Below, in pieces: positions 10,399 to 57,788 of a stretch of 64,000 nucleotides of DNA (position 1 is the stretch's first letter; each line of letters begins with the position of its first letter). The position numbers and the translations under genes are program-made. The notes under the pieces are model-generated. The model made no database searches. It was not told the DNA's origin and saw only the letters and a list, made by a program, of their open reading frames with translations. Source of the DNA: Eledone cirrhosa (taxonomy: Eukaryota); NCBI GenBank assembly GCA_964016885.1, contig OZ024747.1, positions 24,800,001-24,864,000 of the forward strand, given 5' to 3'.

Positions 10399-10807
10399 TT
10401 GTTGTGAAAGAGTCATTTCTCAGTCAGCCGACACAAACCTACATTTGGCGCAAAATCAATTTTTTACATTTACATGACCTCTACCGACCAATCAAAATTG
10501 TTTTGACCACAAGAATTTTTGCAACACGAATTGGCGCAAAATTTATTTTAATACCGCTGGAGCCACTTTTTTAACATAAAAACAGGTAGAATTCCCAAAA
10601 CTTATCAGATCAGAGCAAACATCACGGACGCTCTATCTCAAAATTATTTTTGAAAAGCATTAGAAATGCGCAACCGGTAAAACTTAAAACCAAAACTGAA
10701 TACTAACCAATACAATTACTAATTCTCACATATTCCTAATTAAACTAATTTTCACTGTGAACAATTTGTCAGCATTTTCTATTCCGTTTACCAATATATA
10801 ATAATTT

Positions 10808-12172
10808 GTGTGTTACACCTCTATTCTTTTAAATATCATATCCTCACACGAGATACAGAAAATGCCAACAAAAACGGATACAACCCTCATCAACACAAAT
10901 GAAGAGATTCTACAGGAACTCAAGAAAATTAACACCAACCTATCTTTGCTGGTCGACAAACTTGACTCCACAAATAAGGAAACCGCCACCGGATACAAAC
11001 CCTCCGAAATCGGCGATAAACTCCAAAACCTTTACGATACTATCCAAACTATGTTCACTACTACCAACCCAGGAAAAACCAACGAAGAACCATGTGAGAT
11101 TGATTCATACAAAATGAAAATTCGAACAATTCCAAAATGGAACAAATCCCTCAGAGACAGAAAGTTCTCATTCTGGAAGATGATACAAAATCACAACAAA
11201 GCGGAGATATATGAAAAATGGCTTAACTCAACCCCTCTAACTCTCCCCCGTAAAATACAAATAAAGTCCATTCCAAATGAACCCGAACCTCAAAGACACC
11301 TTAGGGAAAGAATGGCATTGGAAAAAATGAAGACAGAAATTGAACTTCTTAAACTGAGGGCCCAGACAAATGAGGAAAAAATCAAAACCATCGATGAAGA
11401 GATCCTCCTGGAAATCAACAATAAAACTGAAGGCCCCAAGGTAGAGAAGATCTCCAAATTATGGAAAGGGGACTGCAACAGAGAAGAACTGAAATCCCTC
11501 CAACGCTGGGAAAGAAGTGCCGCTTGGTTCCTACACTATGAATCGACTTTTCAAACGGATTACACCTCCAATAACCCGTTCATAAAAATAGGAAAACCCA
11601 TAACTGAACCGCACAACAACTACGCAAACCCCCAAGCCACTAACAAACGAAGAAGGAAGCACCACACCGAAGATGAACTTCCCAACCTCGCAACCATAAG
11701 AAGGAACAAAAACCCTAGAAATCATCTCCCCCAGAATGACATTTACAACTTTCCCCCTTCAAGGAGACACCATACCAAATCACTCAACTACTACGCGGAT
11801 GCCTCATCGTCAAACACAGGGAAAAGATACCACCACCATGATAGATGTAACAACTTCCCCGCTTCAAGGGGACAGCAAGGTAATTTCCATTTTCTCAACT
11901 CTCGCTTCCGCAATACACAACAAACCCACACCACACGATACAACCAACAACGTAGGCCACCTATAACACCACAATCCAACATGACACATAGAAACACACA
12001 CCCATACTCGCAGTACAGGAACACTCCATTCAATCTACAATCACCAACCCGAACCACATTTTACAACAACAAGGAATATAACAAACACAGGGGACCACTT
12101 AACATCAGCAGACAACCCCTCTACCCCAACCATTTTTTAGACACAGCACACAGATACAGGCAAACAAAATAA
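10808..12172 (+). CDS. Putative PLE ORF1: coiled-coil N-half, basic/low-complexity C-half
   Basis: 454-aa open frame with normal complexity (likely start ATG 10862), ending HFL... just over the start of the RT frame. Confidence 0.7.
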   Translation: MCYTSILLNIISSHEIQKMPTKTDTTLINTNEEILQELKKINTNLSLLVDKLDSTNKETATGYKPSEIGDKLQNLYDTIQTMFTTTNPGKTNEEPCEIDSYKMKIRTIPKWNKSLRDRKFSFWKMIQNHNKAEIYEKWLNSTPLTLPRKIQIKSIPNEPEPQRHLRERMALEKMKTEIELLKLRAQTNEEKIKTIDEEILLEINNKTEGPKVEKISKLWKGDCNREELKSLQRWERSAAWFLHYESTFQTDYTSNNPFIKIGKPITEPHNNYANPQATNKRRRKHHTEDELPNLATIRRNKNPRNHLPQNDIYNFPPSRRHHTKSLNYYADASSSNTGKRYHHHDRCNNFPASRGQQGNFHFLNSRFRNTQQTHTTRYNQQRRPPITPQSNMTHRNTHPYSQYRNTPFNLQSPTRTTFYNNKEYNKHRGPLNISRQPLYPNHFLDTAHRYRQTK

Positions 12173-14276
12173 TACAAGACAGGGAGGAGAAACCGATAGT
12201 AATAAAAATTATCAATCTTACTAGTGCAGAACCAACACCCAACCTTATCAACTTACTCTCCAAAGGTCTTAAATTCACACGACCCCACTACGTCCTAACT
12301 ACTATGAAATGAAGGAAGACATCACAGACTTCTGTAGAAAGTTACGACTCAGTGAACAACTATTCGACCAGTACAATGAGGATGAATCATTAGCCAGAAA
12401 TAGAAGCAATTACACCCCATCAAAAGGTAAAAATAAAATCCTGGACGAATTCTGTGAACACATCACAAACTTCCCTTACCAACACTTGCACAGACAAAAA
12501 CACAAGCCAAAGCTCAACAAGAAAGATTGGGAAGAATTAAATAGATTAAAAACCGACAGAACCATTACAATTAAAGAGGCTGATAAAGGGAGTACAGTAG
12601 TCCTAATGGAGACAGAATTCTATGTCAACTTAGCGCTCTCCACTTTGGAAAACGAAACATACTACGAAAAGGCTGAACACTACAATCAACAGAAAATTAT
12701 GAGAAACCTAAAAACTCTGATCAACCAATACAAAGAAGGACTCACTAACAAGGAATTCAGCTTCATCACAGACTTCACAAGTAAATCCAGCCTTTTCTTC
12801 GGTATCCCTAAAGTACATAAAAGCGAATTAATAAGTAAGGCATGCAAGGAAGCCACAGACATAGTCATCAATGTCCCCTCACCCAATGATCTCAAATTAA
12901 GACCTATAATAGCAGGCCCCGCTTGCGAAACCCACCGCCTTAGCAACTTCATTGATACCCTCCTCAAGCCTTTTCTCAAACACATCAAAAGCTATATAAG
13001 GGACGACCTAGATATGCTCAATCACCTCCCTAATATGCCACTTTCTGAACAAACCCTACTAGTGACGTTCGATGTAGTCAACCTATACTCCAACATCCCC
13101 CACAACCTAGGAATAGAAGCTATCCAATTCTGGCTGGATAATTACCACAATGAACTCCCACAACGCATCAAAAAAGAATTCGTGATAGAGGGACTCAAAT
13201 TTATCTTGGAGAACAATTACTTCGTTTTCAATAACAAACCCTACAGGCAGAAATCTGGGACCGCTATGGGAACGAAAACAGCCCCCACTTATGCCAACCT
13301 AGTCATGGGATACCTGGAAATCACCCTCTACACTAAAGTCCTAAACAAATTTGGAAACACTCTCCACTTACACATAGAAAGGAACTGGAAGCGATATCTA
13401 GATGACTGCTTCATCCTTTGGCACGAAAGCATCGAGAAACTTAAAGAATTTCACACCCTTATAAATGGGCTCAACACGAATATTAACTTCACGATGGAAT
13501 ACAGCCATCAACAACTCCCCTTCCTCGACATCCTCATTAAGATCCATAACAAAAAAATAGAAACAGACATATACTACAAGCCCACAGACTCCAAGCAATA
13601 TCTTCCTTTCAACTCTTGCCACCCTAGACACGTTAAAATTAATATTCCCTACAACTTAGCCAAGAGAATCTGTACTATAGTCTCCAATAAAAACACCTGC
13701 TACTTACGGCTACAAGAACTAAAGGACACACTCATAGGCAGGGACTACCCTGCATCACTAATTGACAATGGAATCCAACGTGCCCTAAAACTACCTAGCC
13801 GTAGGAACACGTGCAACCCAGTAGTTAGTACTAACTGTAATTGTAGGAATCGGGCTGATTGCCCCCTATCCGGGAAATGCCTCTCTAGTAACATTGTCTA
13901 CAAATGTAAGGTTGTAACACCCACGTCCCGTAGGGCCTACATAGGGTTAACCGCCAATAGTTTCAAGCAGCGTCTTTACATGCATACCCATTCTTTTCGC
14001 TACCCTCTAAGAAGGAATATGACGTCACTTTCAGCTTATATCTGGAGTCTAAAAGACAACCACACCCAATATAAGTTACACTGGGAGATCCTAGCTAGGG
14101 CTAGATCGTATAACGGAAATAAAAGACCATGTGACCTCTGTGCCGCTGAGGCCCGGGAAATACTCTACGCCACAGACCACATCTTAAACAAAAAATCTGA
14201 GGCAATTTCGGCTTGTAAACATAAATTGCACAAAACTTTCCTGTATTACAGCCCCACATTATACCCTAACGGATAG
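12133..14276 (+). CDS. PLE reverse transcriptase + GIY-YIG endonuclease (655-aa ORF from 12309; N-terminal motif in an adjacent frame)
   Basis: IINLTS...LLSKGLKF in the frame starting 12133; KEADKGSTVV, FGIPKVHK, LRPIIAG, FDVVNLYSNI, GTAMGT, RYLDD, YYKPTD; then CNC..CPL..CL..VY...YIG. Confidence 0.9.
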
Positions 14277-14757
14277 TACGATCTATACGTGGATATTTTA
14301 CGTCTTGATGTGGGAGCTAAGCATATGTTTTGTTTATACCATTACTTATTTGCATAGCGAACGTTTCCACGAACCAAAGTATCGTCTTCCTGTCTTCCTC
14401 CGGTTACAACGTTTTTTTGAAATATCCAGTTCTGCGTTTACAGATTGACTTTGTTAGTTTCAGAAGATCCCGTTAAGGGTGAAAGCATCGATTCTTTCCT
14501 TAAGTTTAATCTGTTATTTTAATAAATATTTTCTCTACGGTTCTTATATATTTGATATATATTTATCCTTATCGAGCCCTCTTTGGATTTTAGTCTTCAA
14601 ATTTATTATTATTACTATGTATAAATATATATATGTATAAATATATATATGTATATATATGTATAAATATATATATGTATAAATATATATATGTATATAT
14701 ATGTATATATATGTATAAATATATATATGTATAAATATATATATGTATATATATGTA

Positions 14758-15475
14758 TACAAGTTAATATAAATTAATATATATGATAAACACTAATACA
14801 ATCATATAAGTGTTTGTATTGTAAATGACCAAGTTAGCTAGATTGAAAAATACGAATTAGATTAATATAGTTTGCCTGTCTCGATTTAAAATAATAAATC
14901 AATAAAAACAAACCCATATTGGCAATAGCCGTGATACTTGGACAAATTTAAATTTCAAAATCCAAACCTGTTCCGTAGATAAGTTTAAACTTCAAAACCC
15001 AAATAAGTTTCGATAATTAAAAAGGTGAAAAATTCCATCTTCTGTTCTCATCAGCAAGTACCCAGAAAATTGGTATATTTCACCTCAGAATATTTAAGAG
15101 GACTGATCAACGCACATGGTTTTTCAGCGTCTAGCTACCCCATACTCGTGCTGCTAGAAATAACAGCCGTTTATATGGGACTAAAATTAGCTCAACAAAA
15201 GGAGCCGTTATACTATATATATAGAGTTATAAACTCAAACAGTCTTTTACAATTAAATAGCTCAAAGAAAGAAGTATTTCTGAGCCGTGAAATACAAGTT
15301 AATATAAATTAATATATATGATAAACACTAATACAATCATATAAGTGTAGATTGAAAAATACTAATTAGATTAATACAAACTGTATTAATCTAATTAGTA
15401 TTTTTCAATCTAGCTAACTTGGTCATTTACAATACAAACACTTATATGATTGTATTAGTGTTTATCATATATATA
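14758..15475 (-). mobile_element. Non-coding PLE pseudo-LTR-like unit (~535 bp period, partial tandem plus inverted end)
   Basis: 14758-14815 recurs at 15293-15348; 15380-15475 is an inverted copy; the unit contains HHR D. Confidence 0.7.
14933..15062 (-). ncRNA. Type I hammerhead with very long stem III (family D)
   Basis: Minus strand: ggtacttg CTGATGA ga...tc GAAA c[24-bp GU-rich stem]g TC caagtatc; 8-bp stem I; GUC site. Confidence 0.85.
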
Positions 15476-15547
15476 GTATATATATGCATAAATATATATA
15501 TGTATAAATATATATATGTATATATATGTATAAATATATATATGTAT

Positions 15548-16872
15548 AGACAAACATAGAATATTCGAAAATATTCTGTATGTTTATAATAAACATTTCG
15601 AAGACCCAATCGCTATAGAATAGAATACATCATGTATTACAATTTGAGATTCTCGATAAAAGCAAGGGAAGTAACCTACGCGTTTCATTCTTATTAGAAA
15701 TCATCAGGATTACATATCCAGTGCTTTTATCGAGAATGACACAGCTAGAGACTTATAGAATACTTAGCTGTGTACAGGAACTGGTTTGAAAGAGCGGTTG
15801 CCGGTCCGGCAGAAATTAGAATTTGGATATAGCGATTGGGTCTTCGAAATGTTTATTATAAACATACAGAATATTTTCGAATATTCTATGTTTGTCTTCA
15901 CATATATATCGCTATTTCAGAGCATTATATCCAAATTCTAATTTCTGCCGGACCGGCAACCGCTCTTTCAAACCAGTTCCTGTACACAGCTAAGTATTCT
16001 ATAAGTCTCTAGCTGTGTCATTCTCGATAAAAGCACTGGATAAGTAATCCTGATGATTTCTAATAAGAATGAAACGCGTAGGTTACTTCCCTTGCTTTTA
16101 TCGAGAATCTCAAATTGTAATACGTGACGTATTCTATTCTATAGCGATTGGGTCTTCGAAATGTTTATTATAAACATACAGAATATTTTCGAATATTCTA
16201 TGTTTGTCTTCACATATATATCGCTATTTCAGAGCATTATATCCAAATTCTAATTTCTGCCGGACCGGCAACCGCTCTTTCAAACCAGTTCCTGTACACA
16301 GCTAAGTATTCTATAAGTCTCTAGCTGTGTCATTCTCGATAAAAGCACTGGATATGTAATCCTGATGATTTCTAATAAGAATGAAACGCGTAGGATACTT
16401 CCCTTGCTTTTATCGAGAATCTCAAATTGTAATACGTGACGTATTCTATTCTATAGCGATTGGGTCTTCGAAATGTTTATTATAAACATACAGAATATTT
16501 TCGAATATTCTATGTTTGTCTTCACATATATATCGCTATTTCAGAGCATTATATCCAAATTCTAATTTCTGCCGGACCGGCAACCGCTCTTTCAAACCAG
16601 TTCCTGTACACAGCTAAGTATTCTATAAGTCTCTAGCTGTGTCATTCTCGATAAAAGCACTGGATATGTAATCCTGATGATTTCTAATAAGAATGAAACG
16701 CGTAGGTTACTTCCCTTGCTTTTATCGAGAATCTCAAATTGTAATACGTGACGTATTCTATTCTATAGCGATTGGGTCTTCGAAATGTTTATTATAAACA
16801 TACAGAATATTTTCGAATATTCTATGTTTGTCTTCACATATATATCGCTATTTCAGAGCATTATATCCAAAT
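15548..16872 (+). repeat. 312-bp tandem repeat x3.3 (15829, 16141, 16453, 16765) preceded by an inverted copy (15548-15829); retrozyme-like
   Basis: Exact 312-bp spacing of atagcgattgggtcttcg; one HHR per unit; no ORF. Confidence 0.92.
16042..16088 (+). ncRNA. Minimal type I hammerhead, family E (copies 16354-16400, 16666-16712, and ~15669-15713 on minus)
   Basis: aagtaatc CTGATGA t-ttct aata agaa-t GAAA cgcg TA ggttactt, enclosed by a perfect 16-bp stem attctcgataaaagca/tgcttttatcgagaat. Confidence 0.88.
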
Positions 16873-16941
16873 ATATATGTATGTATATATATATATGTAT
16901 AAATATATATATATGTATAAATATATATATGTATAAATATA

Positions 16942-17012
<71 letters not shown>

Positions 17013-17067
17013 AAATATATATATGTATATATATATGTATAAATATATATTTGTATATATATATATG

Positions 17068-17113
<46 letters not shown>

Positions 17114-27180: not shown

Positions 27181-28061
27181 AAGTTGAAAAAAATGAAAAC
27201 GAAATTTCATTTCTCACTCTAAGGAAAGTATATACTTTCGAACGTTCAACTATCTGGCAGATGGGTAAACGGTGCTGATGATAGCTAACAAGCTTGAAAC
27301 TAGTACATCGTTCCTGTGTCAGTGTTGAACAAAAAGGTGATGTGGTTGCCTTAACACCGTATGGCATAAATTCAGGCTGTTCGGTTTGTTGACAAACAAA
27401 CGAACAAAGCGGCGTTGTAATAAACGTCCGCTAAACTGATGCGTGCATATATGTATGTGTACCTGTATGTATATATGTATATATGTATGTATATATATAT
27501 ATGTATATATATGCATGCTACTGTACGTCTGTATACATATATGTATGTACGTATACATACATACTTACATTTAAGTAAGTGCCATACTAAGAGTGAGAAA
27601 TGAAATTTCGTTTTCATTTTTTTCAACTTATCGTTTTCGGTATGCCTGACCGATTTAACTCACTCAATATGCAAATTTGGCTGCTCAGCCGTTAATTTTC
27701 ATAAGGAAAGTATATACTTTCGAACGTTCAACTATCTGGCAGATGGGTAAACGGTGCTGATGATAGCTAACAAGCTTGAAACTAGTACATCGTTCCTGTG
27801 TCAGTGTTGAACAAAAAGGTGACGTGGTTGCCTTAACACCGTATGGCATAAATTCAGGCTGTTCGGTTTGTTGACAAACAAACGAACAAATCGGCGTTGT
27901 AATAAACGTCCGCTAAACTGATGCGTGCATATATGTATGTGTACCTGTATGTATATATGTATATATGCATATATATATATATATATATGTATGTATATAT
28001 ATGCATGCTACTGTACGTCTGTATACATATATGTATGTACGTATACATACATACTTACATT

Positions 28062-57265: not shown

Positions 57266-57788
57266 ATATTGTTATACTTTGGGAGGGTCATGTTGCCAAT
57301 AAGAAACACACGCACCAGTTGCTTTCACTTCAATTTAATTTAATATATATTTATAAATTTACAAATTTATAAATTTCTGGTTGGTTGGTTGGTTCCACAA
57401 CCAGATAGTTGTTTATATATATATAGTCATAGTTCTTTCGTCACACACTCTGTGACCTCTTCAGTGACTGGGGATTTCTTTCTTCGTTTCTGTGCCTTTC
57501 CTTTCTTCTATCCTACGCCATTTTTCAGAAAAATGGCGTAGGATAGAAGAAAGGAAAGGCACAGAAACGAAGAAAGAAATCCCCAGTCACTGAAGAGGTC
57601 ACAGAGTGTGTGACGAAAGAACTATGACTATATATATATAAACAACTATCTGGTTGTGGAACCAACCAACCAACCAGAAATTTATAAATTTGTAAATTTA
57701 TAAATATATATTAAATTAAATTGAAGTGAAAGCAACTGGTGCGTGTGTTTCTTATTGGCAACATGACCCTCCCAAAGTATAACAATAT
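57266..57788. repeat. 523-bp palindrome of PLE pseudo-LTR family F (centre 57527)
   Basis: Two 261-bp arms around a single A. Confidence 0.93.
57585..57629 (+). ncRNA. Minimal type I hammerhead, family F (minus copy 57425-57469)
   Basis: agtca CTGAAGA g gtcaca gagtg tgtgac GAAA gaac TA tgact. Confidence 0.87.

What the first reader, a model, noticed from the sequence alone, without database searches (positions are those of the whole stretch)
15548..16872. 312-bp protein-free tandem HHR repeat: candidate retrozyme producing a 312-nt (circular) RNA
Seen: three near-identical units with predicted GUA cleavage after 16080, 16392 and 16704, an inverted upstream copy, and a highly self-complementary unit (16-bp clamp around the HHR; aaacatacagaatatt/aatattctatgttt; tgccgg/ccggca; acacagcta/tagctgtgt). 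Established: non-LTR retrozymes are tandem units of a few hundred bp with type I HHRs that yield circular RNAs and are thought to use PLE RT. Inference: a viroid-like non-autonomous element copied by rolling reverse transcription.
Basis: partly seen in the sequence, partly recalled or inferred. Interest (0 to 1): 0.85.

Follow-up and report, generated by a model that had tools for sequence, protein, structure and literature searches.

The report
Retrozyme pasted with Penelope two-start footprint
This is one copy of a protein-free 312-base jumping repeat with a conserved hammerhead ribozyme fold, and its copies land in TA repeats as two back-to-back arms ending at two fixed points, which suggests a Penelope-type enzyme likely copies one small, probably circular, RNA into both ends of a DNA cut.

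Summary
Confirmed: 3.3 tandem 312-bp units at 99% identity (15828-16872), an inverted arm (15548-15831), four type I hammerheads and no ORF. It belongs to a dispersed family (513 exact ribozyme-core matches; about 10,000 with a 310-bp sister; about 21,000 in the wider group). No Penelope ORF runs into it at 59 loci. Of 51 two-armed loci, 49 have one arm ending near unit base 131 and the other near 168, and none has two like ends. This is the 'tail' footprint of Penelope-like retrotransposons (two internal RT starts). Units and both arms of a locus nearly always share one haplotype. 113 of 120 arms cross the cleavage site, with no pile-up of 5' ends there. The helices and the C3-G8/U3-A8 pair covary across subfamilies. 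One RNA-behaving run holds the repeat, mostly as the 310 type. Self-cleavage, a unit-length circle and the partner enzyme are not shown. Verdict: new member of the animal non-LTR retrozymes, likely Penelope-mobilised; circular template about 60%. This scan has already noted the same architecture on other DNA, including the 310-bp sister in this genome.

The parts
15548..15831 (-). Inverted arm: unit positions 158-312 plus 1-129, ending at the short (tail-less) end and running into the TA tract
15671..15713 (-). Hammerhead of the inverted arm; predicted cleavage after 15677
15828..15831 (.). Head-to-head junction of the two arms, 4-nt TATA overlap
15828..16872 (+). Direct arm: unit positions 60-312, two full units (16081-16392, 16393-16704), then 1-168
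16020..16108 (+). Hammerhead domain 1 with 16-bp clamp (16020-16035 pairs with 16093-16108); hammerhead 16044-16086, predicted cleavage after 16080
16356..16398 (+). Hammerhead 2, predicted cleavage after 16392; A-A mismatch in helix I (base 16395)
16668..16710 (+). Hammerhead 3, predicted cleavage after 16704
16764..16851 (+). Stem-loop domain (unit 60-147) around the short end; holds motifs kept across subfamilies; inferred RT recognition region
   Evidence: function is inference
16834..16872 (+). 35-40-nt 'tail' (unit about 130-168), present on this end and absent from the inverted arm's end
15467..15547 (.). Left TA-rich target tract
16873..17110 (.). Right TA-rich target tract

Best explanation
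This is one insertion of a dispersed, protein-free hammerhead repeat (a non-LTR retrozyme) that is likely pasted in by a Penelope-like retrotransposon enzyme, probably by copying one circular monomer RNA round and round from both ends of a cut TA repeat. Steps: (1) arrays are transcribed (supported by one RNA-behaving run, mainly for the 310-bp sister); (2) hammerheads would cut the multimer to monomers, probably as dimers through the palindromic helix III (predicted); (3) a host ligase would close a 312-nt circle (inferred from other retrozymes); (4) a Penelope RT/GIY-YIG protein, probably a dimer, would nick both strands of (TA)n and start cDNA at two fixed internal sites, about +131 and +168 from the cleavage site, one per DNA end (the two end positions are shown; the enzyme is inferred); (5) both cDNAs would run through the cleavage junction for up to 10 rounds and be joined head-to-head by microhomology (arm structure shown; rolling inferred).
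For: Ends: 39 of 41 two-armed 312-type loci and 10 of 10 two-armed 310-type loci have one short and one tailed end, none has two like ends, and the 2 exceptions have one broken end. This matches the Penelope structure (inverted 5'-truncated copy, 30-40-bp tail at one end; PMC8557442 passages) and the two internal RT starts, both-strand extension and AT-rich target shown in vitro (PMC11167929). A coding Penelope-type family in this genome also ends in (TA)n, and in 5 of 20 loci a second, mostly inverted copy stops about 50 nt short. 3' ends run into TA tracts in 83 of 100 and 20 of 22 cases by a crude test; L097 shows a 14-bp target duplication at a non-TA site. One template per insertion: at five diagnostic sites 3 of 258 locus-site tests are mixed and the arms agree in 164 of 167; rare variants are fixed in every covering unit of a locus (L044 127C 4/4, L046 205T 4/4, L059 21C 7/7, L042 159T 6/6; L097 20G 10/10, L099 92G 4/4); single-unit variants are shared between loci no more than chance (6 against a null mean of 6.5). 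Template continuous across the cleavage site: 113 of 120 arms cross it, 77 cross it at least twice, and 1 of 120 5' ends lies within 3 nt of it (that one is explained by a mismatch). Selection on the RNA fold: 15 of 25 pairs change on both sides, including C3-G8 to U3-A8; 95.9% of cells pair, 0 of 500 shuffles reach this, slid controls 35-47%. Younger arrays are longer (median 8.5 against 4.0 units). RNA: X6 behaves as RNA of this species (spliced ribosomal-protein contig, 0 differences) and lays 238 contigs on the repeat.
Against: No circle, unit-length RNA or cleavage was observed; contigs cannot show them. In vitro, the one Penelope studied did not need hammerhead cleavage and used uncleaved RNA, and 8 of 9 Xenopus retrozyme dimers did not cleave. 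23 variants sit in some but not all units of a locus, several with period 2-4 (L038, L059, L083, L087) and one in both arms (L037 39C), which needs multimeric templates or later local duplication. Site 190 is mixed in 6 of 16 loci that carry the T. The partner enzyme was not found: the 312 unit had no BLAST match to 100 GIY-YIG 3' ends in 1.02 Mb of held DNA. X6 carries nearly only 310-type alleles, in line with copy number, so it may be read-through of host transcripts; it is one run from one study. The covariation set is 13 hand-picked, related sequences and the structure was drawn from them. 40 of the 59 loci were the best-scoring ones, so they lean to intact copies.
Confidence: 0.62

Rival explanations
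1. Same Penelope mobilisation, but the template is an uncleaved linear multimer transcribed from a homogeneous source array. The hammerhead acts at another stage or not at all.
For: Uncleaved RNA was the dominant in vitro substrate for the anole Penelope. Periodic and cross-arm shared variants. The lack of 5' ends at the cleavage site fits this too. Very young arrays are nearly identical, so a multimer from them would look like one haplotype.
Against: New variants reach fixation across whole arrays and mixed haplotypes are rare (3 of 258), which needs a monomer bottleneck. Single-unit variants are not passed between loci above chance, although power is modest. The hammerhead is kept by compensatory change.
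Confidence: 0.25
2. Penelope-type insertion of one or two units, followed by local growth through unequal crossing-over (the minisatellite model in the Li et al. preprint).
For: 23 partly shared variants, some in adjacent or periodic units; the model is proposed in 10.64898/2026.07.22.740005.
Against: The youngest arrays are the longest: up to 17.5 units with 0-4 single-unit differences and no partly shared variant in 12 loci. Both inverted arms are multimeric. Single-unit variants (238) far outnumber partly shared ones (23).
Confidence: 0.08
3. The unit is only the terminal repeat (pLTR) of a coding Penelope element, and these loci are truncated copies.
For: Same end architecture as Penelope elements; a coding Penelope lies 0.9 kb upstream; only a small part of the roughly 21,000 units was inspected.
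Against: No Penelope ORF is contiguous with the array at 59 loci (the nearest fragments are antisense at L061 or end in their own TA tract at L067). The 5' flanks of 20 one-armed loci share no upstream element apart from two pairs of other repeats. None of 10 single tail-motif loci led into an ORF. Arms hold up to 10 head-to-tail units with no ORF between. The neighbouring Penelope has an unrelated terminus.
Confidence: 0.04
4. Ordinary satellite DNA with a chance hammerhead motif.
For: No Rfam hit at gathering score.
Against: Dispersed short arrays with fixed ends; complete hammerhead with compensatory changes in helices I and II, the clamp and the 3-8 pair.
Confidence: 0.01

Closest known systems
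Animal non-LTR retrozymes (Cervera and de la Pena 2020, PMC7229834: parts 3-4 of 6 read plus term search; Li, Clavereau and Pollet 2026, bioRxiv 10.64898/2026.07.22.740005: parts 1-3 of 5 read plus term search)
   Same: About 300-bp, low-GC (35%), non-coding tandem units, one type I hammerhead each, dispersed, self-paired. The U-U at the base of helix II recalls axolotl HHR_Amex2.
   Different: Those papers link retrozymes to Penelope by co-occurrence, ribozyme type and pLTR homology. 'Inverted' occurs 0 times in the 2020 main text; in the 2026 text 'tail' occurs 0 times and 'inverted' once, in a reference. Here the insertions show a two-armed tail footprint and one haplotype per locus, but no pLTR homology was found, and circles and cleavage are untested. 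Supplements were not seen and may show insertion structures.
EN+ Penelope-like elements (Craig et al. 2021, PMC8557442, passages; Frangieh et al. 2024, PMC11167929, parts 1-3 of 4; Arkhipova et al. 2013, PMC3846280, passages; Cervera and de la Pena 2014, PMC4209133, part 1 of 4)
   Same: Head-to-head inverted 5'-truncated arm, 30-40-nt tail on one end, (TA)n or AT-rich targets, RT starts downstream of the hammerhead cut site, palindromic helix III, U3-A8 core variant in older subfamilies.
   Different: No RT or GIY-YIG ORF; arms are long runs of the short unit; non-autonomous.
Non-autonomous Chlamys/MRC1-type Penelope derivatives (passage in PMC8557442)
   Same: Non-autonomous, multicopy head-to-tail insertions made by Penelope machinery.
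   Different: Those generally resemble their autonomous partner at the 3' end, and the clade lacks canonical hammerheads; here a full hammerhead is conserved and no partner homology was found.
Hammerhead viroids and viroid-like satellite RNAs (PMC7761336 passages; otherwise recalled)
   Same: Similar size, self-paired fold, hammerhead.
   Different: Genome-encoded, hammerhead on one strand only, spreads through DNA insertion; no evidence of RNA-to-RNA replication or infectivity.

Membership tests
Animal non-LTR retrozyme | Short tandem units (about 150-1000 nt), each with a type I hammerhead | tested here: met
Animal non-LTR retrozyme | No protein coding; low GC | tested here: met
   longest ATG ORF 34 aa, GC 0.35
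Animal non-LTR retrozyme | Dispersed, stand-alone copies, not the terminus of a coding element | tested here: met
   a sample of loci, not all
Animal non-LTR retrozyme | Highly self-paired monomer with the hammerhead free to fold | tested here: met
   (prediction); covariation
Animal non-LTR retrozyme | Transcribed | tested here: inconclusive
   X6 behaves as RNA and holds the repeat, nearly all 310-type; may be read-through
Animal non-LTR retrozyme | Self-cleavage, and accumulation of unit-length circular RNA | not testable with these tools
   only contigs were available; a tandem and a circle give the same contig
Penelope-mobilised insertion | Inverted 5'-truncated arm with a 30-40-nt tail on one end only | tested here: met
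   49 of 51 two-armed loci
Penelope-mobilised insertion | AT-rich or (TA)n target, with target duplication where readable | tested here: met
   103 of 122 3' ends by a crude TA test; one clear 14-bp duplication at L097, others unreadable in TA
Penelope-mobilised insertion | Sequence shared with the pLTR of an autonomous partner | tested here: inconclusive
   no match among 100 GIY-YIG 3' ends in 1.02 Mb; the genome was not searched exhaustively
Autonomous Penelope-like element | RT plus GIY-YIG ORF between pLTRs | tested here: not met
Viroid or viroid-like replicon | RNA-to-RNA replication without a DNA phase, often ribozymes on both strands | tested here: not met
   genomic insertions throughout; no minus-strand hammerhead core

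The most novel reading that the evidence does not exclude
Each two-armed locus is a genomic record of twin-primed rolling-circle reverse transcription: a Penelope RT dimer starts at two fixed sites 35-40 nt apart on one self-cleaved, ligated RNA circle, writes multi-unit cDNA onto both ends of a cut TA repeat, and the two strands are joined head-to-head. This would identify the mobilising enzyme class of animal retrozymes, explain the Penelope tail and inversion, and give a roughly 310-nt natural template for reconstituting the reaction.
Probability: 0.55. Interest if true: 0.72.

Novelty: new member of a known kind. Interest (0 to 1): 0.48.

Why it matters
Two questions are left open in the papers read: which enzyme moves animal retrozymes, and whether circles are the templates. 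PMC7761336 states that the repeats show no conserved motif pointing to a partner, and the one in vitro Penelope study found hammerhead cleavage dispensable. This family gives exact predicted RT start sites, a strict one-short-one-tailed rule, a conserved stem-loop and tail motif, and thousands of young insertions, so both questions become directly testable. The element itself is an ordinary member of a known class, and the scan has met the same pattern repeatedly in this genome.

Tried and rejected
Rfam at gathering score: 0 hits in the window. Run search: no RNA holder listed; this blank is not used as evidence. X4 holds one 342-nt contig (312+30, closing on itself) and X5 one 267-nt contig, but neither covers the ribosomal-protein exon, so they may be trace material; a closed contig cannot tell a circle from a tandem, and neither is used. 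No joints and no start or end pile-ups (contigs cannot show them). Partner search: the neighbouring Penelope family has the same architecture but an unrelated terminus, a tail of about 50 nt and about 96% identity among copies, so it is not assigned. The diverged match in L061 turned out to be an older 318-320-bp retrozyme subfamily next to another repeat, not a pLTR. Patterns on the tail and stem-loop motifs returned 21,282 and 18,934 matches, of which only the first 100 were listed; 18 loci were fetched and none led to a partner. Target duplications at L089, L090, L092, L098 and the window cannot be read because the flanks are TA repeats or minisatellites. One search failed on a script error and was rerun. 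Rows left out: L101 from the 310 set (it is 312-type); hits under 90% identity or 30 nt in the end and variant counts; place 16512 from the editing-like count (a genomic variant). Literature searches for a prior description of the footprint in retrozymes found none in the passages read; the library lacks most subscription papers and no supplements were opened. The look-ups by sequence and by nearby place returned no earlier finding.

Full report
Observation. The window holds a 312-bp tandem of 3.3 copies at 99% identity (15828-16872) and an inverted arm (15548-15831). The two meet head-to-head through a 4-nt TATA overlap and are flanked by TA tracts. Each unit has a complete type I hammerhead: a 6-bp helix I, the CUGAUGA core, helix II closed by U-U, GAAAC, a 2-bp helix III with the palindrome ACGCGT, and GUA. 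Predicted cleavage follows 16080, 16392, 16704 (+) and 15677 (-). The helix III strand self-pairs at -9.5 kcal/mol, as expected for hammerheads that work as dimers (PMC4209133, part 1). The middle ribozyme has an A-A mismatch in helix I. The unit folds better than shuffles (z -4.5; circular z -5.2), has no ORF over 34 aa, and has no hammerhead core on the minus strand. Rfam gives nothing at gathering score and weak HH9 matches at all four sites.

Family. The genome is 3.0 Gb and has a spliced ribosomal-protein gene. An octopus-like host is my guess from recalled genome features and from earlier scan notes; it was not tested. The exact ribozyme core occurs 513 times, a looser core 10,046 times, mostly a 310-311-bp sister about 96% identical, and the tail motif 21,282 times, including older 318-320-bp subfamilies. 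I examined 59 loci of the 312 type (the 40 best-scoring, window included, plus 19 from the first 100 exact matches), 12 of the 310 type, and 33 further loci for older subfamilies and single copies.

Not a Penelope terminus. tblastn with the window's Penelope protein hit 20 of 59 loci, never contiguous with the array. The nearest fragments are antisense (L061) or end in their own TA tract (L067). The 5' flanks of 20 one-armed loci share no upstream element apart from two pairs of other repeats. Two abut fragments that look like other LINEs (L035, L059; names recalled, not tested). The coding Penelope at 10805-14617 (RVT_1 hit) is 0.9 kb away, separated by TA tracts and other inserts, and has an unrelated terminus.

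Penelope footprint. 41 of 59 loci are two-armed and head-to-head. In 39, one arm ends at unit position 129-149 (the true end is near 131; TA homology blurs it) and the other at 162-174. The 2 exceptions have one broken end. All 10 two-armed 310-type loci follow the rule, and no locus has two like ends (contig C1 subset 23 of 24). One-armed loci end at either site (13 short, 7 tailed). An inverted 5'-truncated copy with a 30-40-bp tail on one end is the described Penelope structure (PMC8557442 passages; PMC3846280 passages). Frangieh et al. showed that the tail lies between two internal RT start sites downstream of the hammerhead, and that the enzyme cuts and extends both strands of AT-rich DNA and is predicted to be a dimer. 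A coding Penelope family here also ends in (TA)n, with a shortened second copy, mostly inverted, in 5 of 20 loci. 103 of 122 3' ends pass a crude TA test, and L097, at a non-TA site, shows a 14-bp target duplication. That a Penelope enzyme made these insertions is inference from this match; I put it at about 0.9.

Nature of the template. Because the inferred starts lie 131 and 168 nt downstream of the cleavage site, a cleaved linear monomer could give only that much cDNA. 113 of 120 arms cross the site, 77 at least twice and 20 at least five times. 5' ends scatter over the unit, with 1 of 120 within 3 nt of the site, and that one is explained by a mismatch. The template is therefore a circle or an uncleaved multimer. 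Among variants covered by two or more segments, 112 are fixed in the locus, 238 are in one segment and 23 are in between. Five diagnostic sites are mixed in 3 of 258 tests, and the arms agree in 164 of 167. Rare variants are fixed across all units of single loci, and single-unit variants are shared between loci at chance level (6 against 6.5). The family thus evolves through single-unit bottlenecks and both arms come from one haplotype, as a circle predicts. Against a pure circle model, several of the 23 partly shared variants are periodic or present in both arms. Site 190 is mixed in 6 of 16 loci; it lies in a near-palindrome, so repeated palindrome correction is a likely cause (inference). 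The younger 310 arrays are longer (median 8.5 units, maximum 17.5, with 0-4 single-unit differences) than the 312 arrays (median 4.0; 0.29% single-unit divergence), the reverse of slow local growth.

Selection on the RNA. In 13 chosen sequences from the subfamilies (alignment A1), 15 of 25 named pairs change on both sides: 8 in the clamp, 3 in helix I, 3 in helix II, and the catalytic 3-8 pair (C-G in 8, U-A in 5). 95.9% of cells pair, 0 of 500 shuffles reach this, and slid controls give 35-47%. Relatedness and the way the structure was drawn inflate these figures. The U3-A8 variant is known from Penelope hammerheads.

RNA. Laid on a ribosomal-protein exon, run X6 gives one contig at depth 3072 with no difference, covering the exon only and continuing into the next exon, so it behaves as RNA of this species. 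X1 behaves as DNA (depth about 5, intron covered) and may be the window's source. X6 lays 238 contigs on the repeat, nearly all with 310-type alleles, so expression of the 312 type itself is not shown. At 7 of the 26 listed places X6 has a change at 10% or more that X1 lacks; all 7 are A>G or T>C, and these letters occur in 0-1 of about 195-270 genomic segments. This looks like A-to-I editing of the long hairpin that two-armed loci would form, but the runs carry different sample codes, so it is unproven. It is one run of one study and may be read-through. Nothing here shows unit-length or circular RNA.

Comparison and verdict. All DNA-level features of animal non-LTR retrozymes are met; cleavage and circles are untestable here. 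The papers read link retrozymes to Penelope elements by co-occurrence, ribozyme type and pLTR homology, and their main texts do not describe inverted, tailed insertions (searches; supplements not seen). My reading was recorded before I saw earlier scan notes. Those notes report the same architecture for the 310-bp sister and other families; they are unchecked and not independent support. New member of a known kind, with an informative mechanistic footprint. Interest 0.48.

Noticed in passing
window:27180-28050: A second, unrelated hammerhead tandem family (unit about 482-496 bp; cores at 27275 and 27757; U-U closing helix II, palindromic helix III). 712 candidates in the genome, many as two-armed arrays.
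   Followed up: partly
window:10805-14617: Coding Penelope-type element (455-aa and 667-aa frames, RT plus GIY-YIG-like end). The family targets (TA)n and has a variant hammerhead-like core with A in place of U4 in all 23 listed matches.
   Followed up: partly
L116:1457-1551, L131:5380-5473, L093:5490-5581, L132:5352-5446: Older 318-320-bp subfamilies of the same group with longer self-complementary helix III, and U3-A8 or C3-G8 cores.
   Followed up: yes
window:15920-16560 laid with run X6: Seven A>G or T>C changes absent from the DNA-behaving run; editing-like, unproven because the samples differ.
   Followed up: partly
L040, L053, L064: The cleavage triplet reads GUG in all listed hammerheads of L040 (5) and L053 (3), a form expected not to cleave, and GUU once in L064. 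If fixed at insertion, a non-cleavable unit was copied, which fits either an error fixed in a circle or uncleaved templates.
   Followed up: no
window:47094, 54125, 57464-57590, 63190, 8626, 7391: Further hammerhead-like motifs beside TA tracts, one with a U3-A8 core; probably ends of other Penelope-type or retrozyme families.
   Followed up: no
L068 and L080: Two loci far apart on contig C1 share the same short-end junction and the same flank beyond the TA tract, suggesting insertion into a common repeat or joint movement.
   Followed up: no
window:14765-14870 and 15297-15470: Direct and inverted copies of a short AT-rich element between TA tracts, just left of the array.
   Followed up: no
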